From a virus (Duplodnaviria > Heunggongvirae > Uroviricota > Caudoviricetes): DNA of 64,000 nucleotides. The DNA lies in the IMG/VR virus record IMGVR_UViG_3300025299_000102; one strand, given 5' to 3'. The first letter of the stretch is position 1. Every line of letters begins with the position of its first letter. Under the pieces are notes generated by a model. It worked only from the letters and a program-made list of their open reading frames with translations, was not told the origin of the DNA and did no database searches. Positions 3,754-44,520 of this stretch are shown here, in pieces. The translations under genes were made by a program, and so were the position numbers.

Positions 3754-4040
3754 TGCCTTTGTTTTTCGTATTGGTGCTAGCGTCCCTTGGCATTTTTTGG
3801 GGAGGCTTCGCGGCCGCCACATTGTGGGGCTGGTTCATGGTTCCATTAGGGCTGCCCGCGATTTCATACTGGCATGCAGCCGGCCTCAGTATGCTGCTCG
3901 AGGTTCTAATGGGTTCCCGCGGTGTCTCGCGGAGCTCCGAGGCTGATGCTGAAAAAGCCGTCTCCTTTGCGCTGTACTGCGCCGTTCTTATCCCTGCCTT
4001 TGGCCTAGTTTTTGGTTTGCTGGTTCACCAGCAAATGTAA
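3753..4040 (+). CDS. small integral membrane protein
   Basis: Start overlaps previous stop (TAATG); 3 predicted TM helices. Confidence 0.45.
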   Translation: MPLFFVLVLASLGIFWGGFAAATLWGWFMVPLGLPAISYWHAAGLSMLLEVLMGSRGVSRSSEADAEKAVSFALYCAVLIPAFGLVFGLLVHQQM

Positions 4041-4074
4041 GCCGGTGCCTGGCTGCACATAACTATACCTTCGC

Positions 4075-5793
4075 ATGAACAAACAACTTACCATTTCCCT
4101 GGGGCAAATCAACCCAACCATTGGCGACTTCAAGGGCAACATCACTCTGATGCGCAATGCGGCCTTTGAGGCGCAAGCAGCTGAGGCTGACATGGTGGTG
4201 TTCCCAGAGCTATCCCTCACAGGCTATAGCCCAAGCGACCTGCTGGACGACAACATGTTCCAGCAACGCCTCGAACAGGCTCAGTCCGCCCTCTATGAAG
4301 CGTCCAAGGCTACTCCTGACGTTTATTGGGTAGTCGGATTGCCTATTCGTCGCTCCGGCCGTGGCGGCCGGCCGTATTACAACGCGCTGCAGGTGCTTCT
4401 CAATGGTGAAGTGGTCCACACCCAGTACAAGCAGCTCCTACCTACGTATGGCGTGTTCGATGAGCGGCGCCATTTCGAGCCAGGCCCTGACGTTGGCAAG
4501 GTCTTGCGAATCCGAGGGGTGACTATCGGATGGTTGGTCTGCGAAGACGCATGGAACGACACTGGCCTGGATTACCCAGTCAATCCGTTCCAGCGGCTGG
4601 CCGACGCATCGCCGGACTTGGTCATTTCGATAAACGCAAGTCCAAGTCACAAAGGCAAGCGTCAAGTTCGCCATTCGGTGATTTCCAAGGCCTGCGCGCG
4701 GCATAAACTTCCACTGGTTTATGTCGCCCAGGTCGGCGGCCATGACCAGCTGGTTTTCGATGGCGCATCGTTCGCGGTAAATGCTACAGGGGAAGTCGTA
4801 TTCGAGGCCAAGCGTTTTGACTCGGATGTCCCTACCATTCGACTGGATGTCGAGAGCCAGGCCTTTATGTCCGAAACTGGCGAGAAGCTGCCCCCAGTGG
4901 CTGCGGAGGGGTTGCCTGTGATGGAGTTCTACCGGCAGCAGCTTGTACTGGGAATCCGCGACTATGCGCGCCGCTGTGGCTTCACCAAAGCCCTGCTTGG
5001 CATGTCGGGTGGTATCGACTCCGCGCTGACCCTGATGCTGGCGGTCGAAGCGCTCGGAGCCCCGAACGTCGTGGCCGTGACGATGCCGTCCACCTACTCG
5101 AGCGAAGGTAGCGTGCTCGATTCCGAGTTGATGTGTCAGAACCTGGGAGTGCAGCTCATTGAGCTACCTATCCAGGAGATGGTCGACCAGTCATGCAAAT
5201 CGTTCGAAGCCAATGTCGGGGAGGCTCCGCGTGGGCTGGCTCTTGAGAACCTGCAGGCACGCATCCGCGGCATGATGCTGATGACTTACTCGAACCAGTA
5301 CGGCCAATTGTTGCTCACGACCGGGAATAAGAGTGAGCTTTCGGTAGGGTTCTGCACGCTCGGCGGCGACGTGCTGGGAGGCTTGTGCGTGCCCGGTGAC
5401 CTTTATAAAACGGAGGTAGTAGCGCTGTGCGAGCACATTAACGCTTCATACGGTCGAGAAGTAATTCCCGTGGCCATTATTACGAAGCCGCCGTCGGCCG
5501 AACTTTCACCAGGCCAGATGGACACCGACTCTTTGCCGCCATACCCAGTTCTGGATGAAATCCTGAAAGTGCACATTGAAGGCGACTTGCTCGATGTAGA
5601 AGAGCGCCGGCACGCCAATGCCGTGGTTCGCGGCCTAATGGCCGGACACAAAGGCCTCGACACAGTTGTCAAGGTGCGTCAGCTGATTGCACGCAGCGAG
5701 TACAAGCGCCGCCAGGCGCCACCCGTAATTCGAGTTCGTGCTCGCGCATTCGGTGTCGGGCGTCAAGTACCAATTACTGCTAAGCAATACTAA
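4075..5793 (+). CDS. nadE: glutamine-dependent NAD+ synthetase (CN-hydrolase domain + NAD synthase domain)
   Basis: N-terminal nitrilase-type domain (VVFPEL...; C in GWLVCED) and C-terminal PP-loop GMSGGIDSALTL, 572 aa typical of two-domain NadE. Confidence 0.85.
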   Translation: MNKQLTISLGQINPTIGDFKGNITLMRNAAFEAQAAEADMVVFPELSLTGYSPSDLLDDNMFQQRLEQAQSALYEASKATPDVYWVVGLPIRRSGRGGRPYYNALQVLLNGEVVHTQYKQLLPTYGVFDERRHFEPGPDVGKVLRIRGVTIGWLVCEDAWNDTGLDYPVNPFQRLADASPDLVISINASPSHKGKRQVRHSVISKACARHKLPLVYVAQVGGHDQLVFDGASFAVNATGEVVFEAKRFDSDVPTIRLDVESQAFMSETGEKLPPVAAEGLPVMEFYRQQLVLGIRDYARRCGFTKALLGMSGGIDSALTLMLAVEALGAPNVVAVTMPSTYSSEGSVLDSELMCQNLGVQLIELPIQEMVDQSCKSFEANVGEAPRGLALENLQARIRGMMLMTYSNQYGQLLLTTGNKSELSVGFCTLGGDVLGGLCVPGDLYKTEVVALCEHINASYGREVIPVAIITKPPSAELSPGQMDTDSLPPYPVLDEILKVHIEGDLLDVEERRHANAVVRGLMAGHKGLDTVVKVRQLIARSEYKRRQAPPVIRVRARAFGVGRQVPITAKQY

Positions 5794-5836
5794 ACTGATT
5801 GACCGATGATTAAATACTTGCCAAAGTGTTGCTTTG

Positions 5837-5845
5837 TGGTATAAT
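5837..5845 (+). promoter_or_regulatory. extended -10 promoter (TGgTATAAT)
   Basis: TGnTATAAT ending 9 nt before the predicted 5' end of the tRNA-like RNA. Confidence 0.4.
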
Positions 5846-5854
5846 GCAATTCAT

Positions 5855-5982
5855 CTCCCTGTGGCTGAGCTGGCTTAAGGCGGCGGACTCTAAACCCGAT
5901 GCGAAACCTGCTCTTGGCTACGGACTTTTGTTCGATGCAAGACTGGCGTTTGCCGTGGGTTCGAATCCCACCAGGGGGACCA
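5855..5982 (+). ncRNA. oversized tRNA-like RNA (7-bp acceptor stem, D-arm-like hairpin, canonical T-arm GTGGGTTCGAATCCCAC, discriminator A, CCA); 128 nt
   Basis: 3' end GTGGG-TTCGAAT-CCCAC-CAGGGGG-A-CCA; 5' CTCCCTG pairs with CAGGGGG (one G.U); GCTG/CGGC D-stem with GG loop; middle ~70 nt does not fold as a normal anticodon arm. Confidence 0.5.
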
Positions 5983-6030
5983 ATTTAAAGTAGTTGCCAT
6001 CATGAATGGGCAGCTATTTGCAGCAAAACA

Positions 6031-6056
6031 AACCCGCATTTTGCGGGTTTTCTTTT
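6031..6056 (+). terminator. intrinsic terminator
   Basis: AAACCCGCAttttGCGGGTTTT + T-tract ~50 nt after the tRNA-like 3' end. Confidence 0.6.
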
Positions 6057-6180
6057 ATACGTTCGAAAAGTCTGCAAATGTGAAGTCCAGCCAGTCCGGC
6101 CGCATTTTTTCATGGCCCAACGCGTGGTCAGCAAAGAATCTTTGCTATACGGAGTGTCAAAACCAAAAGGAGGAAACACC

Positions 6181-6468
6181 ATGCCCACGAACGAAGAACT
6201 TGTGCAACAACTGCAAGAACGCGGCATTACCCCGCACGACCTGGACGACACCATCCTGGCACTCATTCACGACAAGAATGCTGACCTGATTGCCTCGATG
6301 CCGGCGGCCTCGTCGACCACCATCATGCAGAACATCGCAACTGAAGCTCGTTTGCTGACTCAGAAAGGCCTGGCCGCTCAGGTCGAATGGATGGACAGCT
6401 ACTACAACAACCGCGAGTACCTGGTCTGGGCTCTCACCGGTTACCTGCGACTGCCTCTCGCCGCCTAA
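6181..6468 (+). CDS. hypothetical small protein (95 aa)
   Basis: AAGGAGGA RBS 6 nt upstream of ATG 6181; followed by terminator. Confidence 0.5.
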   Translation: MPTNEELVQQLQERGITPHDLDDTILALIHDKNADLIASMPAASSTTIMQNIATEARLLTQKGLAAQVEWMDSYYNNREYLVWALTGYLRLPLAA

Positions 6469-6470
6469 CT

Positions 6471-6502
6471 AAAAAGCCACCGGTATGGTGGCTTTTTCTT
6501 TT
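6471..6502. terminator. bidirectional intrinsic terminator
   Basis: AAAAAGCCACCggtatGGTGGCTTTTTCTTTT between convergent genes. Confidence 0.6.
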
Positions 6503-6513
6503 GCGGCTTGCGG

Positions 6514-7023
6514 TTAGGCCGCTTTCTGCTGCTGTCGAAGCCTGACGGTCATGCTTGTGTGTTGCGACACCGTCGGCAGCAAGATACGCTCTACGATGGA
6601 TATGGCTTCATCCAGGCTGTCCACCACATAGCCACAACATTCCAGCAGCATTGGGTGCACATGTACCTTATCGTGCTTTCCTATGACCAGCACGATTTGC
6701 TTTCGGGCTGAGTCGGCCCAGGCAATCTCCATAACGGTACCGATGGAGACTTTTGGCGCGTCAAGCAGATTTACCAGCACTGCGTCAGCACGCATGCAGT
6801 CGAAGCGGTCGCGCGACGTAATCCCCTTTGCTGAGCTCAGGGGATGCTGCTCGTATGAAGCAGCAATCGCTTTCTCGTTGGCTAAATACTCTTTGTGCCG
6901 CATCGGCGAGAGTACTTGCAGTTGCGCGTCCATGTTCTGCGAGACATAGTCACGCCAATCGGTAGCAGTGCCATACGATGCGTCTGTAATTGGCCCGGCC
7001 AAATAGACCAGTTTCCTATTCAT
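6514..7023 (-). CDS. nucleoside 2-deoxyribosyltransferase-like protein
   Basis: N-terminal VYLAGPITD...W motif characteristic of nucleoside 2-deoxyribosyltransferase/DNPH1 (Rcl) family. Confidence 0.55.
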   Translation of the reverse strand: MNRKLVYLAGPITDASYGTATDWRDYVSQNMDAQLQVLSPMRHKEYLANEKAIAASYEQHPLSSAKGITSRDRFDCMRADAVLVNLLDAPKVSIGTVMEIAWADSARKQIVLVIGKHDKVHVHPMLLECCGYVVDSLDEAISIVERILLPTVSQHTSMTVRLRQQQKAA

Positions 7024-7038
7024 TGTTTTCCTTAAAAA

Positions 7039-7455
7039 TTACACCAGCGCCAGCCGACGATATTGCACGTAAACGTTGTCACGGGTTAGGGCGTGGCCCT
7101 CATACATCATTTCTGGCTCGGTCCAGTCCCAGAGGTCCCGAACGACCAGGGTAGGGATAACACCTGCAGTGGCGTGCGCAAACTCCATATCGAGCAGTCG
7201 AAGCGAACCGCTAACATAAGGAATGACGCGAAGTGCTTTTTCTAACTTCTCTTTAATGGTTAGTTCAGCAGGCAGCAACGCTGTAATGTCGAGTAGCTCA
7301 CCAGGTGCTAGTGCCAGCGCAGCGTCTACGATGGCTAAGCCCAGCTCTTGTTCTTCCAATTCCTTGGTTGGCGATTCAGGGCGCCGGCGAGCGTATTCGA
7401 TGCGCCAGTTGAAGTGTTCCACCGCTTCTGCGCGAACGGATTCATTGGTTCTCAT
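7039..7455 (-). CDS. hypothetical protein
   Basis: ORF; ATG at 7455 overlaps stop of upstream gene (ATGA). Confidence 0.4.
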   Translation of the reverse strand: MRTNESVRAEAVEHFNWRIEYARRRPESPTKELEEQELGLAIVDAALALAPGELLDITALLPAELTIKEKLEKALRVIPYVSGSLRLLDMEFAHATAGVIPTLVVRDLWDWTEPEMMYEGHALTRDNVYVQYRRLALV

Positions 7456-8066
7456 GCGGCGACTCCATACAGTTTTCGACATGCTTCCTCATTCGCCTGC
7501 TGGCGCTGAGCTGCTTCCTTATCCTCTTCCGATTTCGTATGCAGGGCATGCATGATACCCACATCAAATACATACAAAATCTCTCGCTCGGCTATGGCCA
7601 GGTCACGCCACGCTAGCACCGCAGGAGCGCCGGCCTCAACGTAAGTCAACGCCTTGTGGCATTCGCCGGACGCAATTACTGGGCATAGCAAATCGAGTTG
7701 TTCTTCGATGGAATAGTAAACCTCCGGGTAGACCATGCAGCTCACCAGGCTAGCCACCAACGCCAAAATCAGTGTCAAAGCTAGCGCGCCGATTGGATAT
7801 TCATGGCGCTGCAAGATTGCCGCATGGTTTGTTGCGTCAAGTATGGACGCTGTGAACAGCAAGAGTAGAATTGCACCGAGTGAGGCACAAAATGCAATGG
7901 CAGTCCGCCCACGCCAAAGGCTCGCACGCTCAAGTTGTTTCTTAAGCGAAGCGGTTTCGATTTTTACTGCATCTGGCGTAGTCATTCTTTCGGCCATCGG
8001 TAGTGCGCCCCAGTATCTCGTCCATTTAGCTTGACGAGCAAGTGACAGCAGTTCTTGTCGGTGCAT
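7452..8066 (-). CDS. membrane protein
   Basis: Two strong hydrophobic helices; translational coupling to downstream gene. Confidence 0.45.
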   Translation of the reverse strand: MHRQELLSLARQAKWTRYWGALPMAERMTTPDAVKIETASLKKQLERASLWRGRTAIAFCASLGAILLLLFTASILDATNHAAILQRHEYPIGALALTLILALVASLVSCMVYPEVYYSIEEQLDLLCPVIASGECHKALTYVEAGAPAVLAWRDLAIAEREILYVFDVGIMHALHTKSEEDKEAAQRQQANEEACRKLYGVAA

Positions 8067-8222: not shown

Positions 8223-9125
8223 ATGAAGAAAATAGCAAGTCATGGCGGTTCCTTTCACGCTGATGATGCGCTTGGCATTTCGATGCTGCGCGCGCTGTAT
8301 CCTGATGCGGAAGTTGTTCGCACACGCGACCCGGCCGTTTGGGCTACCTGTGACGCGCTAGTTGACGTCGGCGGTGAACATGACCCCGTGCGCAACCGGT
8401 TCGACCATCACCAGAAGGGCTTTGCGGAGCGTCGCGCAAACGGTATTCCGTACGCAGGCTCAGGCCTGGTCTGGGCTGCCTATGGCGCCCGCTATGTATT
8501 GACCATGGTCGATTGGGCGTCGTACGCCGAAGCTGAAATCATTGCGCGGATGGTCGATGAAAAGCTCATCCAACATGCTGATGCCGTCGACAGCGGTATC
8601 AACGTTCCAGGGTCAATGCACTTCAACCTGTCGGGCATCATCGACACCCTGAACAGCCGCTGGTATGAGCCAGAAGGCGATGATGACCTGCTTTTCGCAG
8701 AAGCAGTTGAACTTGCGGGCACAGTTCTTCGGAACCTGGTGCGTGCGGTCGCAGCTGAATATGCAGCAGCAGACCGAGTTCGTAATGCACAGCAGCTTGC
8801 CGGCGGCCGTATTATCGTGCTTGACGCAGCTCGCCTGCCATACGACCCTGTTGTGGTCAATGAGCTGCCGGACTGCCTCTTCGTGGTGTACCCTGAATCG
8901 ACAGGCAAACAGCACCAGGTCCGAGTTGTTCCGAAGGTTCTGGGTAAGTACGAAGCTCGCGCAGACCTTCCTGAAGCATGGGCCGGCCTTCGTGACGATG
9001 CACTGGCCGCGGCTACCGGTGTCAAGGACGCGGTCTTCTGCCATAACGGTCGCTTCATCTGTGGTGCCGGGTCGAAAGCCGGCGCAATTCGCATGGCTGA
9101 GCTTGCGCTTGAGGCTCTGGAGTAA
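8223..9125 (+). CDS. MYG1/UPF0160 family metal-dependent hydrolase (paralog 1)
   Basis: N-terminal HGGSFHADDALG and DHHQ motifs typical of MYG1/GAMM1 exonuclease family; AAGGAGGA RBS; TTGACG-17-TATACT promoter upstream. Confidence 0.65.
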   Translation: MKKIASHGGSFHADDALGISMLRALYPDAEVVRTRDPAVWATCDALVDVGGEHDPVRNRFDHHQKGFAERRANGIPYAGSGLVWAAYGARYVLTMVDWASYAEAEIIARMVDEKLIQHADAVDSGINVPGSMHFNLSGIIDTLNSRWYEPEGDDDLLFAEAVELAGTVLRNLVRAVAAEYAAADRVRNAQQLAGGRIIVLDAARLPYDPVVVNELPDCLFVVYPESTGKQHQVRVVPKVLGKYEARADLPEAWAGLRDDALAAATGVKDAVFCHNGRFICGAGSKAGAIRMAELALEALE

Positions 9126-9878: not shown

Positions 9879-11105
9879 ATGACCGCCATTCAGCAGGAAC
9901 TGCGTCGCCTTGAAGGTTTGACGCCAGAGGCTATCGCCACGCACTTTTTCGACAACTACGGCATCATCGCGCAGCTGCATCATCACGGCGCGCTATGGCT
10001 GTTTGATTATGACCAACTGGCGGCACACAAGCACCGCATGACCGACATGGTTATGGAGTCCCGGGGGCTAATCCTATGCGCAGAAACCCTGGACATTGTG
10101 CGCCGGCCGTTTGCTCGCTTCTTCAACATCGGCGAGGCGCCAGCCTACGAAAGCGACATCGACTATGAGAAGCTGGAAGCTCTGGAAAAAGTGGACGGCA
10201 GCCTGGTCACGCTCTACTACAACAAGGTCACCAATCATTGGCATTTCGGCACCCGTGGCACTCCGTTTGCGGAAGGCCGCAACCGTCATACGGGAAAGGT
10301 AATGTCCGACCTAATTTCGCGCGCAGCTGGCTTGGTCCACAAGCCAGGTACTTCGGAGTTTGACAAGAACCTGCGCAGCGCCGGAATTCTTGACCCAGAC
10401 GTGACTTATCTGTTTGAGTTCATCGGTCCGGACAATCCCCATGTTACTCGCTACACTGAATCCGAGCTTGTGCTTCTCGGCGCTCGGCGGCTTAATGGCA
10501 TTGAATATACGCCGCAAGAGGTCAACTTCTTGTTCAACCTGTTTACGGCGGTTGGTTGGCGAGTCCGCATGCCAAAGCGCTATCCAATCCCGCTGGCGCT
10601 TGGCGGTCTGGCACGCTCGCTTCAGGTTGAGGCCATCAAGAACTGGGTCGCCTCGGCGCCTGAGTTCAAAGGCTTACATGAAGGTGTTGTATGCATCAAC
10701 GCATCCACCGGAAAACGCCTGAAGGTAAAGACCCCGCTGTACTGCGCTGTTCATCTCCAGGGAGATGAAGTGGAAGGACTCAGCATCAGTAAGGCTCGCG
10801 TTGCAGACCTCATTGTCAATGGGGATGCCGATGAGTTCTGTTTGTACTTCCCGGCGTTGGCGCCAAAGGTGCAAGCCATGGCTGGCCAGGTACAGGCCTT
10901 TATCGAAGGTTTGGCTCCCATTTGGGAAGAAGTCAAGGATATCGCGGACCAGAAGGATTTTGCCGTTGCTGTGCAAGCTAAAGCACCTGGTGCTGCATCG
11001 GCCATCTTCTTCCTTGCTCGCAAGACGGGCGTGACGCCCGCTCAGGCTTGGATGGGAATGCCTTTGAACAAAAAGGCATCGCTGGCCGAGAAGCTGGTGG
11101 GGTAA
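9879..11105 (+). CDS. ATP-dependent RNA ligase, T4 Rnl1-like
   Basis: Nucleotidyltransferase motif I EKVDGSLVTLYY (cf. T4 Rnl1 KEDGSLV); size 408 aa; further KxxG motifs. Confidence 0.7.
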   Translation: MTAIQQELRRLEGLTPEAIATHFFDNYGIIAQLHHHGALWLFDYDQLAAHKHRMTDMVMESRGLILCAETLDIVRRPFARFFNIGEAPAYESDIDYEKLEALEKVDGSLVTLYYNKVTNHWHFGTRGTPFAEGRNRHTGKVMSDLISRAAGLVHKPGTSEFDKNLRSAGILDPDVTYLFEFIGPDNPHVTRYTESELVLLGARRLNGIEYTPQEVNFLFNLFTAVGWRVRMPKRYPIPLALGGLARSLQVEAIKNWVASAPEFKGLHEGVVCINASTGKRLKVKTPLYCAVHLQGDEVEGLSISKARVADLIVNGDADEFCLYFPALAPKVQAMAGQVQAFIEGLAPIWEEVKDIADQKDFAVAVQAKAPGAASAIFFLARKTGVTPAQAWMGMPLNKKASLAEKLVG

Positions 11106-43129: not shown

Positions 43130-44520
43130 TCCTCAAGTCAGATTCAAACCAGTTAGGTGTTTTTCCACTTCAAGGTATAGTTCCAGGAACGTAAAAACCC
43201 CGGTTGACCCGGGGTTTGAGGTTAGCCGCGGCGAATTTCGCCGGCATATTCTTGACGTCCGCCCAGCCCTAAAGGGCAGGGATTCCTGCTGCCAGGCCCG
43301 CACGTCCGCGGGCGAGGATGTTCTTGGCGGCATTGACATCGCGGTCGTGTTCCGCGTTGCAAGCACAGCACTGCCATCCTCTTATTCCAAGACCTGCGAC
43401 ACCTTTCGGCCCCGTGCGTGAACCGCAGCACGAACAAGTCTGGGTGGAAAACGCTTCATTGACTTCCTCGAACCATACGCCGGCGTCAGCGCACTTGTAC
43501 TGCAGCATGGTTCGGAATGCACGCCAGCCGGCATCGAGCACGGACTTCGCCATGCCGGTTTTTGCCAGGGCGGCCGCATTCACGTTGCCTACGAAGATAG
43601 CACCATACTCGCGTGCGAGCGTGGTACTGAATTTGTGCAAGGCGTCCTTGCGCCTGTTTGCTATTTTTGCATGCAGGGCTTTGACGCGTTGTTTCTTATT
43701 CGCCCGCTGAGCCATCGCCAACGCCGGCTCCAGGTCCCGATAGAACCGGTTTGCCTCGAGTGTCTCGCCAGTGCTGAGCGCAGCGAAGTCTTTCAGGCCC
43801 AGGTCGATACCGACTTCCCGGGTGGTGGTACTGCGCGCTGGCTTGGAGAACTTGACCGTAACGTTCAGGTACCAACGGCCACGGCTATCCTCGCTGAACG
43901 AGCCAGGTCCCAGTTCGAATTGGCTTAGGCTGTAGCTGTCCCACAGCGAAAACGGTTGACCACAATACCAGAGCTGGCCCTGTCGGTATCGCAAGGCTGA
44001 TGCCTTAAACGGTACCCAACCTAATGACCTGCGTGCGCCACCTGATTTGCGCCAGGCCAACCGCCGTTTATTAAATTGTCGCCGCCGAGTGACCAGTTCC
44101 TTGCTAATTGCCTGTACCGTTTGCGAATGGAGTGATAGACCTACTTTTGTCGCACCTGACGTGTAGCGGTCCAACTCAATGTTTGAGCAGAATCGTCCCT
44201 CGCGTTCTAACACTTTTACAGCTAGCTCGTTACAGAAGTTCCACACGAAGTTAACTTCCCGAGCCTGTGCGCGCAAGAACGCACTGTGCTTGTCTTTCAG
44301 TCTAAGGCGCAAGGTTCGTATTGTCGACGAAGAACTACTGGTCATATGTACAGTATATTCGATGCCCGCCGTATCAGCAAGTCACTGGATGCGCCCAACA
44401 TCCCCGGCCTTTAGGCCGGAGCCTTCGAATACCTCTTTGAGCCTGCCTGCGACTAACGCATCCTTCAGTTCACCGCACCGGACATAGCCCAGGCTTGGAG
44501 TTATTGCTCATAGGTATAAG
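43130..44520 (-). mobile_element. IS200/IS605-family insertion element carrying only tnpB (IS1341-like)
   Basis: TnpB ORF flanked by subterminal hairpins (AAACCCCGGttgaCCCGGGGTTT 43196-43218; CCCCGGCCtttaGGCCGGAG ~44395-44415; GGCCGtttaGCGGCC ~44523); boundaries approximate. Confidence 0.55.
43269..44345 (-). CDS. tnpB: TnpB (OrfB) RNA-guided endonuclease-type transposase accessory protein
   Basis: 358 aa; RuvC-like residues and C-terminal zinc finger CSCCGS...CCACNAEHDRDVNAAKNI typical of IS605 OrfB. Confidence 0.8.
   Translation of the reverse strand: MTSSSSSTIRTLRLRLKDKHSAFLRAQAREVNFVWNFCNELAVKVLEREGRFCSNIELDRYTSGATKVGLSLHSQTVQAISKELVTRRRQFNKRRLAWRKSGGARRSLGWVPFKASALRYRQGQLWYCGQPFSLWDSYSLSQFELGPGSFSEDSRGRWYLNVTVKFSKPARSTTTREVGIDLGLKDFAALSTGETLEANRFYRDLEPALAMAQRANKKQRVKALHAKIANRRKDALHKFSTTLAREYGAIFVGNVNAAALAKTGMAKSVLDAGWRAFRTMLQYKCADAGVWFEEVNEAFSTQTCSCCGSRTGPKGVAGLGIRGWQCCACNAEHDRDVNAAKNILARGRAGLAAGIPAL

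What the first reader, a model, noticed from the sequence alone, without database searches (positions are those of the whole stretch)
5829..6060. Oversized tRNA-like RNA gene (128 nt) with canonical acceptor/T-arm/CCA but expanded anticodon region, own extended -10 promoter and terminator
The 3' end GTGGG-TTCGAAT-CCCAC-CAGGGGG-A-CCA is a textbook T-arm, acceptor strand, discriminator and encoded CCA. A perfectly complementary 5' strand CTCCCTG lies 121 nt upstream, followed by TG and a GCTG/CGGC D-stem-like hairpin with a GG loop. The ~70 nt between the D-arm and T-arm do not fold as a 17-nt anticodon arm. I can only build small hairpins, e.g. GGAC-UUUU-GUUC and GCAAG-ACUGGCG-UUUGC. A TGnTATAAT promoter ends 9 nt before the 5' end and an intrinsic terminator follows ~50 nt after CCA. 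The element is therefore a tRNA with a ~35-40 nt insertion/intron, or a tRNA-mimic regulatory RNA. Bacterial YrlA-type Y RNAs have tRNA-like modules. It may function with the tRNA-centred enzymes encoded nearby (RNA ligase, PTH2, ThrRS-like).
Basis: seen in the sequence. Interest (0 to 1): 0.75.

Follow-up and report, generated by a model that had tools for sequence, protein, structure and literature searches.

The report
Amber-suppressor tRNA with giant extra arm
This is a real, separately transcribed transfer RNA gene that reads the UAG stop codon and carries a variable arm about three times the usual maximum length; it sits at a conserved place in a family of half-megabase phage-like elements of Burkholderia-type bacteria, where relatives hold normal or otherwise deformed versions of the same stop-codon-reading tRNA.

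Summary
The 128-nt gene at 5855-5982 is confirmed, with its promoter and terminator. A normal 17-nt anticodon arm lies at 5883-5899. Its loop is CUCUAAA, so the anticodon is CUA and the tRNA reads the amber stop codon. The surplus is a 55-nt variable region at 5900-5954, predicted to form an imperfect hairpin of about 19 base pairs.

Rfam's tRNA model matches end to end (36.9 bits, threshold 29). ARAGORN finds nothing.

Related 0.5-0.72 Mb elements carry a tRNA(CUA) gene at the same syntenic place. The anticodon loop is invariant, but the body differs:
- canonical 73-74 nt;
- D-arm-less, 68-70 nt;
- class II-like with a 32-nt variable region.

Across ten versions the acceptor, anticodon and T stems covary strongly.

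The best reading is a phage-borne amber-suppressor tRNA with an extreme variable arm. Decoding is inferred, not shown. The 64-kb window shows no TAG recoding, and the amino acid is unknown.

The Y-RNA and intron readings are not supported. Unrelated phage contigs hold tRNA(CUA) genes with 25-35-nt variable regions, so this is an extreme variant of a recurring kind.

The parts
5818..5845 (+). Sigma-70-type promoter: -35 TTGCCA (5818-5823), 16-nt spacer, extended -10 TGgTATAAT (5837-5845)
   Evidence: 11 of 12 consensus positions plus TG. The -10 ends 9 nt before tRNA position 1. The same 9-nt spacing, ending in 'cat', is seen in L021, L024 and L025.
5855..5861 (+). Acceptor stem, 5' strand CUCCCUG (positions 1-7)
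   Evidence: Pairs 7 of 7 with 5972-5978. All 7 acceptor pairs show changes on both sides across the 10 homologues.
5862..5882 (+). U8 G9, then a D arm GCUG-AGCUGGCUUA-AGGC of class II (Ser/Tyr-like) form with G18 G19, then G26
   Evidence: Rfam alignment. G10-C25, C11-G24 and U12.G23 are shared with L002 and L005.
5883..5899 (+). Anticodon arm GCGGA-CUCUAAA-CCCGA; anticodon CUA at 5890-5892; U33 and A37 present
   Evidence: The loop is invariant in all 10 homologues. Three of the five stem pairs covary; 27-43 and 31-39 are often mismatched.
5900..5954 (+). 55-nt variable region, predicted as an imperfect hairpin of about 19 bp. Pairings: GCGAA/UUUGC, CC/GG, G-C, UCUUG/CAAGA, U-A, CGGAC/GUUCG; loop UUUU at 5926-5929
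   Evidence: -15.8 kcal/mol, z = -1.76, 14 of 200 shuffles fold as well. It is inserted between model positions 45 and 46 in the Rfam alignment. No second copy exists in the window.
5955..5971 (+). T arm GUGGG-UUCGAAU-CCCAC
   Evidence: T stems are 100% paired in all 10 homologues, with 3 pairs changed on both sides.
5972..5982 (+). Acceptor 3' strand CAGGGGG, discriminator A5979, encoded CCA 5980-5982
   Evidence: CCA is encoded in all homologues; the discriminator is A in 9 of 10.
5991..6016 (+). 3' trailer hairpin UAGUUGCC / GGCAGCUA (8 bp, 10-nt loop)
   Evidence: Read directly from the sequence. Function unknown; presumably removed during 3' maturation.
6030..6056 (+). Intrinsic terminator AAACCCGCA-UUU-UGCGGGUUU followed by a U run
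   Evidence: 9 pairs, 5 of them G-C. A terminator also follows most of the homologues.

Best explanation
This is a functional tRNA gene with anticodon CUA, that is, an amber (UAG) suppressor. It has a class II-like cloverleaf whose variable arm has grown to 55 nt, giving a 128-nt mature RNA.

How it most likely works, each step marked shown or inferred:
- It is transcribed on its own from a strong extended -10 promoter, probably starting 2-3 nt upstream of position 1. Transcription stops at an intrinsic terminator about 70 nt past the mature end. The sequence signals are shown; transcription itself is inferred.
- Host RNase P and 3' nucleases trim it to the encoded CCA (inferred).
- It is aminoacylated by a synthetase that tolerates both a changed anticodon and a long extra arm. 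The best guesses are LeuRS, SerRS or TyrRS. A73 favours Leu or Tyr; the D arm and anticodon arm look Ser-like. This step is inferred and unresolved.
- It then inserts that amino acid at UAG codons of the roughly 570-kb phage-like element or its host (inferred).

The gene is the local version of a tRNA(CUA) locus conserved in a family of 0.5-0.72 Mb elements of Burkholderiaceae. Selection there holds the anticodon loop, the acceptor/T minihelix and the CCA end. [quoted passage not shown]
For:
- U8, A14, G18 G19, U33, A37 and the T loop UUCGAAU are in place (read from the sequence).
- Position 15 and the base before the T stem co-vary: G/C in the window, A/U in L002 and L005. This is my own numbering of those positions.
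- A tRNA(CUA) gene sits between NadE/H-NS and MYG1 plus Rnl1-type ligase in nine independent relatives. Each has its own promoter-like -10 and an encoded CCA, and most are followed by a terminator.
- The loop CUCUAAA is identical in all ten versions, while the flanking intergenic DNA cannot be aligned.
- On the ten-sequence core alignment, 92.9% of cells pair against 65.6% in shuffles. Thirteen of 17 pairs change on both sides. The covariation score is 0.663 against 0.173 (0 of 500 shuffles reach it), and slid registers reach at most 0.216.
- L002 and L005 carry a 32-nt variable region at the same position. In L005 it is a perfect 12-bp hairpin, z = -3.58.
- Unrelated phage contigs carry well-scoring tRNA(CUA) genes with 25-35-nt variable regions, so long extra arms on phage suppressors recur.
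- TAG is the rarest stop codon: 8 of 86 ORFs in the window and 13 of 171 called genes in relatives. TAA is preferred. This is the pattern reported for standard-code phages that carry suppressor tRNAs (bioRxiv 10.1101/2021.08.26.457843).
- Engineered amber suppressors with aptamer-extended V arms remain active in E. coli (PMC7590224).
Against: - No UAG target was found. Coding density is 91.5% in the standard code. It rises no more with TAG read as sense (93.8%) than with TGA (93.8%) or TAA (94.0%).
- TAG-ended ORFs have only short, unconserved extensions.
- The anticodon stem has only 3 Watson-Crick pairs, with G27.A43 and A31.C39 mismatches.
- L002 and L005 have 1-2 acceptor-stem mismatches. 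Close relatives have D-arm-less versions that ordinary bacterial translation would be expected to handle poorly.
- The window's variable-arm fold is only marginally better than shuffles (z = -1.76), and L002's is no better (z = 0.04).
- ARAGORN does not call the gene.
- There are no expression, charging or proteomic data.
Confidence: 0.6

Rival explanations
1. It is a tRNA-shaped RNA that is not used for decoding. It could act as a decoy, sponge or regulator that presents a conserved anticodon stem-loop and a CCA-ended minihelix. One version is bait for a host anticodon nuclease or another tRNA-targeting defence. Another is an RNA held by an element-encoded protein through the long arm.
For: - Only the anticodon loop, the acceptor/T minihelix and CCA are conserved. 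D and variable arms are lost or inflated among close relatives.
- No UAG targets were found in 64 kb.
- Synteny with RNA-repair-type genes (MYG1 exonuclease, Rnl1-type ligase) is conserved.
- Stems carry mismatches.
Against: - A decoy has no evident need for exactly CUA with U33 and A37 A38, the context favoured by efficient amber suppressors. That preference is established knowledge of suppressor tRNAs, not tested here.
- Five relatives carry perfectly canonical tRNA(CUA) genes scoring 59-68 bits at the same locus.
- No known anticodon nuclease targets a CUA tRNA, because cells have none.
Confidence: 0.2
2. It is a decaying relic. A once-normal suppressor tRNA gene is degenerating through insertions in the variable region and mismatches, and is no longer under selection in this lineage.
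For: - Rfam scores are low for the long-arm forms (32-37 bits against 59-68 for the canonical forms) and for the D-arm-less forms (L021 33.1, L025 35.0).
- L024 has a mutated T loop (UUAGAUU) and is not detected even at E <= 0.1.
- The 31-39 pair is mismatched in the window, L002, L005 and L024.
Against: - The promoter (11 of 12 plus TG), terminator, CCA, all seven anticodon-loop bases and the T loop are intact.
- Stems change by compensatory double substitutions, including within the long-arm and D-arm-less groups.
- The window's acceptor stem is 7 of 7 and its T stem 5 of 5.
Confidence: 0.1
3. It is a bacterial Y RNA (YrlA-like) with a tRNA-like module. It would work with the Ro-like DUF2828/VWA protein encoded at 18549-19925.
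For: - A DUF2828/DUF7788/VWA protein, whose homologues are annotated 'RNA-binding protein' in RefSeq phage records, is encoded in the window.
- RNA-repair-type genes lie nearby.
Against: - No Y-RNA family hit even at E <= 10.
- The ends form an acceptor stem with CCA, not a protein-binding terminal helix.
- The protein gene is 12.6 kb away, has no TROVE domain hit and has no sequence match to solved Ro structures.
- Relatives have plain 73-nt tRNAs at the same locus.
Confidence: 0.03
4. It is a tRNA interrupted by an intron of about 50 nt that is spliced out, perhaps resealed by the neighbouring RNA ligase, to give a normal-size tRNA.
For: An Rnl1-type RNA ligase is encoded 3.9 kb downstream and is syntenic in relatives. 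The surplus is one continuous block.
Against: - The block sits in the variable region, not in the anticodon loop.
- It is far too short for a group I intron. No splicing endonuclease was found among the ORFs scanned.
- Relatives show 32-nt hairpins at the same position, and canonical forms keep the same ligase synteny.
- Class II tRNAs naturally carry an arm at this position.
Confidence: 0.03

Closest known systems
Class II (long-variable-arm) bacterial tRNAs: tRNA-Ser, tRNA-Leu, tRNA-Tyr
   Same: - 7/5 acceptor/T configuration.
- 3-bp D stem with a large D loop containing GG.
- A helical extra arm between the anticodon arm and the T arm.
- The D arm (UGGCUGAGCUGGCUUAAGGC) and the anticodon arm (xCGGx-CUCUAAA-xCCGx) resemble tRNA-Ser. 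This comparison is from memory of E. coli sequences and was not tested here.
- A73 is as in tRNA-Leu and tRNA-Tyr.
   Different: - The variable region is 55 nt (about 19 bp). Normal class II arms are roughly 13-21 nt, and the standard numbering provides for only 7 bp plus a 5-nt loop.
- The anticodon is a stop-codon reader.
- Positions 27-43 and 31-39 are mismatched.
- A BLAST search against E. coli genomes gave no match, so no identity could be assigned.
Phage-encoded suppressor tRNAs (Sup-CUA and others) of crAss-like, Lak and other huge phages
   Same: A tRNA with a stop-codon anticodon carried by a very large phage-like genome. Stop usage favours TAA and is poor in TAG, as reported for standard-code relatives of recoded phages (bioRxiv 10.1101/2021.08.26.457843).
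   Different: - No in-frame TAG was found in the 64 kb examined.
- The host clade is Burkholderiaceae rather than gut Bacteroidota or Firmicutes.
- The gene is solitary, with its own promoter and terminator, rather than part of a tRNA array.
- The variable arm is extreme.
tRNA(CUA) genes with 25-35-nt variable regions in IMG/VR phage contigs (L151, L156, L159/L165, L162/L166, L164, L169), found here
   Same: The CUCUAAA loop, a full cloverleaf, an over-long variable region and frequent failure of ARAGORN to call them. L002 and L005 (32 nt) fall inside this range.
   Different: They are unrelated in sequence and genomic context. They score higher (53-59 bits) and have clean stems. The longest variable region is 35 nt, against 55 nt in the window.
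allo-tRNAs (Mukai et al., PMC5389517) and engineered aptamer-tagged allo-tRNAs (PMC7590224)
   Same: Long V arm, non-standard anticodons including CUA, and origin in metagenomes or phages. The engineered versions show that a lengthened V arm is compatible with amber suppression in E. coli and can serve as a protein handle.
   Different: allo-tRNAs are defined by an 8/4 or 9/3 acceptor/T arrangement. This RNA is 7/5.
YrlA-type bacterial Y RNAs
   Same: They contain a tRNA-like module and occur near RNA-repair genes.
   Different: In this RNA the ends form an aminoacyl acceptor stem with CCA, and there is an anticodon arm. There is no Rfam hit and no adjacent Ro gene.
tRNA-Pyl and tRNA-Sec(CUA)
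   Same: Anticodon CUA. ARAGORN labels the canonical relatives 'tRNA-Pyl' for that reason. Geodermatophilaceae genomes carry class II tRNA(CUA) genes. I recall these as UAG-reading tRNA-Sec, from memory.
   Different: tRNA-Pyl has a 3-nt variable loop and a small D loop. Bacterial tRNA-Sec has an 8/5 arrangement, a 6-bp D stem and G73. Neither description fits this RNA.

Membership tests
tRNA (Rfam RF00005) | Full-length match to the covariance model at or above the gathering score | tested here: met
   36.9 bits against 29, model positions 1-71 of 71, 5855-5979.
tRNA (Rfam RF00005) | Cloverleaf stems supported by covariation among homologues | tested here: met
   Ten syntenic homologues: 92.9% of cells paired, 13 of 17 pairs changed on both sides, 0 of 500 shuffles reach the score. 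[quoted passage not shown]
tRNA (Rfam RF00005) | Detected by a dedicated tRNA finder | tested here: not met
   ARAGORN reports 0 genes in the window and in L002-L006. It also misses other phage tRNA(CUA) genes with variable regions of 28 nt or more, so this reflects a limit of the tool. tRNAscan-SE was not available.
tRNA (Rfam RF00005) | Mature RNA is processed, ends in CCA and is aminoacylated | not testable with these tools
   CCA is encoded (5980-5982). There are no expression or charging data.
Amber suppressor tRNA | 7-nt anticodon loop with U33 and anticodon CUA | tested here: met
   CUCUAAA at 5888-5894, invariant in 10 homologues.
Amber suppressor tRNA | UAG codons that need to be read (in-frame TAG or conserved readthrough extensions) | tested here: not met
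   No TAG-specific gain in coding density. Extensions are short and unconserved. Only 64 kb of about 570 kb, plus about 15 kb from each relative, could be examined.
Genome-wide TAG reassignment (code-15-like phage) | Low coding density in the standard code, restored when TAG is read as sense | tested here: not met
   91.5% in the standard code; 93.8% with TAG as sense, equal to the TGA and TAA controls.
Class II tRNA (Ser/Leu/Tyr type) | Helical extra arm of more than 10 nt between positions 45 and 48 | tested here: met
   A 55-nt region predicted as a hairpin, z = -1.76. L005 has a perfect 12-bp hairpin, z = -3.58. L002 is weak, z = 0.04.
Class II tRNA (Ser/Leu/Tyr type) | Identity elements of one particular synthetase | tested here: inconclusive
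   A73 fits Leu or Tyr and not Ser. The D and anticodon arms look Ser-like. There is no BLAST match to E. coli tRNA genes.
allo-tRNA | 8/4 or 9/3 acceptor/T-stem arrangement | tested here: not met
   The arrangement is 7/5.
YrlA / bacterial Y RNA | Match to a Y-RNA model; terminal helix that binds Ro; adjacent rsr gene | tested here: not met
   No hit at E <= 10. The ends form an acceptor stem. The DUF2828/VWA gene is 12.6 kb away, has no TROVE domain and no match to solved Ro proteins.
Intron-containing bacterial tRNA | Group I intron in the anticodon loop | tested here: not met
   The insert is 50-55 nt and lies in the variable region. No intron family hit was found.
tmRNA | tRNA-like ends plus a tag reading frame | tested here: not met
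   Neither ARAGORN nor Rfam finds a tmRNA in the window.

The most novel reading that the evidence does not exclude
The oversized variable arm is a handle for an element-encoded protein, so that UAG decoding becomes private to the infected cell. One candidate is the N-terminally truncated ThrRS-like synthetase at 21262-22527, whose anticodon-binding stretch differs from canonical ThrRS. Another is the DUF2828/VWA RNA-binding protein. In effect this would be a natural orthogonal synthetase/suppressor-tRNA pair, or a protein-gated suppressor. The rapid turnover of the tRNA body among relatives (canonical, D-arm-less, long-arm) would then reflect co-evolution with that partner or escape from host tRNA-targeting defences.
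Probability: 0.1. Interest if true: 0.85.

Novelty: new variant of a known kind. Interest (0 to 1): 0.5.

Why it matters
- Scale. If the RNA is charged and decodes UAG, it would be, to my knowledge, the natural tRNA with the longest variable arm: 55 nt, for a 128-nt tRNA.
- Tolerance of the translation machinery. Together with its relatives it would show how much of a tRNA body (D arm, variable arm, stem mismatches) can vary while the anticodon loop and acceptor/T minihelix are kept. That bears on what bacterial translation tolerates and on the design of orthogonal suppressor tRNAs.
- Stop-codon reading outside the gut. It extends stop-codon-reading tRNAs to a family of 0.5-0.7 Mb phage-like elements of soil Burkholderiaceae that appear to use the standard code. 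This is the situation proposed as the first step towards stop-codon recoding.
- Annotation. Standard tRNA finders miss such genes, so suppressor tRNAs with long arms are probably under-counted in phage genomes.

Tried and rejected
- Close DNA relatives in cultured phages: none. megablast of 4000-8000 found nothing. blastn of the gene gave only a 45-nt chance-level hit.
- Three exact-pattern scans and one protein-pattern scan of IMG/VR found no member of this family. The clade is absent from that collection.
- The JGI metagenome pattern scan returned only L002's contig plus ordinary Gln-like class I suppressors.
- GTDB genomes. A pattern for long-arm CUA tRNAs found nothing.
- A phage-specific neighbour (the 204-aa ORF) had only one distant homologue. 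MYG1 proved the useful anchor.
- L030, reached through a MYG1 homologue, is a different phage with ordinary tRNAs.
- An all-frame search for conserved in-frame TAG was swamped by antisense and out-of-frame alignments and was discarded. The targeted version found nothing.
- Amino-acid identity by BLAST to E. coli tRNA genes. The window gene gave no match. The canonical relative's best hit is a plasmid tRNA-Asn at 82% over 55 nt, which is uninformative. My initial impression that it looked Lys-like was therefore dropped.
- The idea that the variable-arm tip loops (UUUU, CUUG, CUUGA) act as pseudo-anticodons was considered. It was set aside as unsupported, because the loops are 4-5 nt and CUUG is a common stable tetraloop.
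- Ro-likeness of the DUF2828 protein: no PDB sequence match and no useful literature.
- The 'head maturation protease' PHROG hit is an S49/SppA peptidase that also occurs on plasmids. Whether the element is a phage or a megaplasmid stays open.
- PTH2 was not found.
Full report
WHAT IS THERE

Rfam's tRNA model (RF00005) matches 5855-5979 on the + strand from model position 1 to 71. The score is 36.9 bits against a gathering score of 29. E is 4e-4 for the whole 64-kb window against 4227 families and 3e-6 for the local 500 nt. It is the only Rfam match in the window.

ARAGORN finds no tRNA in the window.

A sigma-70-type promoter, TTGCCA-16-TGgTATAAT, lies at 5818-5845. It matches 11 of 12 consensus positions plus the extended -10 and ends 9 nt before position 1. 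An intrinsic terminator lies at 6030-6050 and is followed by a U run.

ANATOMY

The Rfam alignment places the parts as follows.
- Acceptor stem: 5855-5861 with 5972-5978, paired 7 of 7.
- U8 G9, then a D arm at 5864-5881 with G18 G19.
- Anticodon arm: 5883-5899, GCGGA-CUCUAAA-CCCGA.
- T arm: 5955-5971, GUGGG-UUCGAAU-CCCAC.
- Discriminator A5979 and encoded CCA at 5980-5982.

The anticodon is CUA (5890-5892), preceded by U33 and followed by A37 A38. The stem has three Watson-Crick pairs flanked by G27.A43 and A31.C39.

All the surplus sequence lies between the anticodon arm and the T arm. That gives a 55-nt variable region at 5900-5954. Folded alone, it forms an imperfect hairpin of about 19 bp with a UUUU tip. 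The energy is -15.8 kcal/mol, z = -1.76, and 14 of 200 shuffles fold as well.

The whole RNA does not fold much better than its shuffles (z = -1.45). The forced cloverleaf (-46.0) is within 1 kcal/mol of the unconstrained optimum (-46.7).

GENOMIC SETTING

The flanking NadE protein (4075-5793) occurs on 14 contigs, 11 of them 0.2-1 Mb long; the longest is 572 kb. It is about 70% identical to NadE of Bordetella, Burkholderia and Rhodoferax.

Genes identified in the window:
- MYG1 exonuclease (8223-9125) and an Rnl1-type RNA ligase (9879-11105);
- a 5'-nucleotidase, a FEN-type exonuclease and a DUF2828/VWA protein (18549-19925);
- a ThrRS catalytic core with anticodon-binding domain but no N-terminal part (21262-22527; TIGR00418, 391 bits);
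- topoisomerase IA, PhoH-PIN, TnpB, an ATP-dependent ligase, an RIIA-like protein and an S49 peptidase.

The element therefore looks like a huge phage. The hallmark hits are weak, however. The S49 peptidase also occurs on plasmids. Related 0.6-Mb contigs come from Burkholderia ubonensis, B. multivorans and Paraburkholderia isolates, including the complete replicon CP123191.1. I therefore call it a phage-like element.

HOMOLOGUES

NadE and MYG1 homologues led to nine independent related loci with conserved gene order: NadE, usually an H-NS-like gene, the RNA gene, a ~97-aa ORF, then MYG1 and the RNA ligase.

Every one has a tRNA-like gene with the loop CUCUAAA at this place, with a -10-like box upstream and an encoded CCA; most are followed by a terminator. 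The bodies fall into three types.
- Canonical class I, 73-74 nt: L023, L026/L027, L028, L029. Rfam scores are 59-68 bits. ARAGORN labels them 'tRNA-Pyl cta'.
- D arm replaced by a connector of about 12 nt, 68-70 nt: L021, L024, L025. L021 and L024 need a one-base bulge in the acceptor stem. L024 also has an altered T loop and escapes Rfam even at E <= 0.1.
- Class II-like with a 32-nt variable region, 104 nt: L002-L004 and L005/L006, scoring 35.6 and 32.3 bits. The window belongs with this type but has 55 nt.

By MYG1 identity, the window's nearest relatives (77-80%) include both D-arm-less (L021, L024, L025) and long-arm (L005) forms. The window shares with the D-arm-less genes the exact 9-nt spacing from the -10 box to position 1, ending in 'cat'. 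The genes are therefore orthologous, and the body has changed quickly.

IS IT UNDER SELECTION AS A tRNA?

I cut each of the ten versions down to acceptor, anticodon and T arms; the bulged base of L021 and L024 was removed. On this alignment (A1), 92.9% of cells form standard pairs against 65.6% in shuffles. Thirteen of 17 pairs change on both sides. The covariation score is 0.663 against 0.173 (0 of 500 shuffles reach it), and slid registers give at most 0.216.

T stems are paired in every sequence, with eight different stem sequences. The seven loop bases of the anticodon arm never vary, although the flanking intergenic DNA cannot be aligned. This is what a constrained RNA looks like, not a pseudogene.

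The weak points:
- The 27-43 and 31-39 pairs are often mismatched.
- L002 and L005 have one and two acceptor mismatches.
- Support for the long arm itself rests on three sequences. L005 forms a perfect 12-bp hairpin (z = -3.58). The window is marginal, and L002 is no better than shuffles (z = 0.04).

DOES THE ELEMENT USE UAG AS A SENSE CODON?

In the window, greedy ORF maps cover 91.5% in the standard code. Coverage is 93.8%, 93.8% and 94.0% when TAG, TGA or TAA respectively is read through. There is no TAG-specific signal.

The 7-8 TAG-ended ORFs have extensions of 11-32 codons with no conserved homologue. Some of these ORFs are probably spurious antisense frames.

TAG is the rarest stop codon: 8 of 86 ORFs in the window, against 49 TAA. 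In the called genes of relatives it accounts for 13 of 171. Borges et al. report this TAA-rich, TAG-poor pattern, together with acquired suppressor tRNAs, in standard-code relatives of recoded phages.

Only about 11% of the element could be inspected. Decoding therefore remains an inference from the anticodon and from its conservation.

WHICH AMINO ACID?

This is unresolved.
- A73 (9 of 10 versions) fits Leu or Tyr rather than Ser.
- The D arm of the window and the xCGGx-CUCUAAA-xCCGx arm resemble tRNA-Ser(CGA). That comparison is from my memory of E. coli sequences and is a lead only.
- In L002 and L005, A15 with U before the T stem resembles tRNA-Leu.
- BLAST against E. coli genomes gave no match for the window gene and an uninformative plasmid tRNA-Asn hit for a canonical relative.
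- LeuRS and SerRS do not read the anticodon (PMC11028032 abstract). That would make either a natural route to a suppressor whose arm can grow.

The element's own ThrRS-like enzyme keeps the residues aligned with E. coli E600 and R609. It replaces the conserved RNEKIGxKIRE stretch with GDARLGGKVKS. Whether this changes its anticodon specificity is unknown.

HOW UNUSUAL IS THE ARM?

A pattern scan of IMG/VR for CUCUAAA loops followed 30-60 nt later by a T loop gave 19 loci. After checking stems and scoring with Rfam, six distinct phage tRNA(CUA) genes of 92-105 nt remained. Their variable regions are 25-35 nt (L151, L156, L159/L165, L162/L166, L164, L169; 53-59 bits). ARAGORN misses three of them and mis-reads one.

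Over-long extra arms on phage amber suppressors therefore recur, and the 32-nt forms in L002 and L005 fall inside that range. The window's 55 nt is well beyond it. It also exceeds the 7-bp-plus-loop arm that standard tRNA numbering provides for (own knowledge; numbering scheme described in PMC7954030). Engineered amber suppressors with aptamer-extended V arms work in E. coli (PMC7590224), so length alone does not argue against function.

ALTERNATIVES

- Non-decoding tRNA-like decoy or regulator. This is the main rival. It would explain the plastic body and the missing UAG targets. It does not explain why the loop is exactly a good suppressor loop, nor why five relatives keep a textbook tRNA.
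- Decay. Intact signals and compensatory changes argue against it.
- Y RNA. No model hit at E <= 10, the wrong end architecture and no adjacent Ro gene. The DUF2828 protein has no TROVE domain and no match to solved Ro proteins.
- Intron. Wrong position and size, and intermediate hairpins exist in relatives.

VERDICT

This is a real tRNA(CUA) gene with an exceptional variable arm, belonging to a conserved but structurally unstable suppressor-tRNA locus of a family of huge Burkholderiaceae elements. It is a new, extreme variant of a known kind (phage suppressor tRNAs, class II tRNAs). Interest is moderate. It would rise sharply if the arm proved to recruit an element-encoded synthetase or gatekeeper protein.

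Noticed in passing
L021 4122-4191; L024 4539-4608; L025 4199-4266: The orthologous locus of the window's closest relatives holds tRNA(CUA) genes of 68-70 nt in which the D arm is replaced by a connector of about 12 nt. This resembles some mitochondrial tRNAs. L021 and L024 also need a one-base bulge in the 3' acceptor strand, and L024 has the T loop UUAGAUU. Stems still covary. D-arm-less tRNAs in a bacterial or phage context would be unusual in their own right.
   Followed up: partly
window 6181-6468; also L002 9309-9602, L005 8621-8917, L021 4335-4628, L023 4567-4860, L024 5098-5391, L025 4400-4696, L026 4152-4442: A conserved ORF of 95-98 aa with no family hit always follows the tRNA(CUA) gene. 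Every copy ends in ...NLPLAA, a C-terminus reminiscent of the ssrA/ClpXP 'LAA' degron. A conserved motif GCTATACGGAGTGTCAAAAC lies about 20 nt upstream of its ribosome-binding site and may be an element-specific promoter or operator.
   Followed up: partly
window 21262-22527: The ThrRS-like synthetase consists of a catalytic core and an anticodon-binding domain only, with no TGS or editing domain. The conserved RNEKIGxKIRE stretch of the anticodon-binding domain reads GDARLGGKVKS. Residues aligned with E. coli E600 and R609 are kept.
   Followed up: partly
window 5926-5942: Inside the variable region there is a T-arm-like hairpin, UUUUG-UUCGAUG-CAAGA. It competes with the lowest-energy pairing of the arm. 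It could be a remnant of a partial duplication of the T arm, or chance.
   Followed up: no
window 5991-6016: An 8-bp hairpin (UAGUUGCC / GGCAGCUA) lies in the 3' trailer between CCA and the terminator.
   Followed up: no
L151 3481-3576, L156 9049-9153, L159 1104-1201, L162 13527-13630, L164 1968-2062, L169 7800-7891: Unrelated IMG/VR phage contigs carry tRNA(CUA) genes of 92-105 nt with 25-35-nt variable regions. Some combine these with class I-type D arms. ARAGORN misses or mis-reads four of the six. Long extra arms seem to recur on phage amber suppressors.
   Followed up: partly
L023, L028, L029 and the contigs listed: Elements of this family (0.59-0.72 Mb contigs) occur in assemblies of cultured Burkholderia ubonensis, B. 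multivorans and Paraburkholderia, including the complete replicon CP123191.1 (611 kb). They are absent from IMG/VR and PLSDB. Whether they are megaphages, phage-plasmids or megaplasmids is unresolved. The window has RIIA-like, PhoH and Rnl1 genes, but no capsid or terminase gene was seen.
   Followed up: partly
window, all TAG-ended ORFs: After a TAG-terminated ORF, the next in-frame stop is again TAG in 6 of 8 cases. After TAA- or TGA-terminated ORFs it is TAG in 20 of 78. The likely cause is that several of these ORFs are spurious antisense frames.
   Followed up: partly
window 18549-19925: The DUF2828/DUF7788/VWA protein has homologues in 695 phage records (T4-like and jumbo phages, mycobacteriophages), which RefSeq annotates as 'RNA-binding protein'. 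It has no TROVE domain hit and no PDB sequence match.
   Followed up: partly
L164 3739-4329 and 9894-10298: An IMG/VR phage contig carries a ROOL RNA (337 bits), a tmRNA and 21 tRNA genes next to its long-arm tRNA(CUA).
   Followed up: no
L031-L110: GTDB genomes of Geodermatophilaceae (Geodermatophilus, Blastococcus, Modestobacter, Klenkia) carry a conserved class II-size tRNA(CUA) gene. Methanosarcina hits are tRNA-Pyl. Neither is related to the window's family.
   Followed up: no
window 43269-44345 (-); L023 11882-13322; L026-L028: The elements carry a TnpB/Cas12f-like gene (window), a SMODS-SLATT (CBASS-type) gene pair (L023) and a BglII/BamHI-type restriction endonuclease (L026-L028).
   Followed up: no
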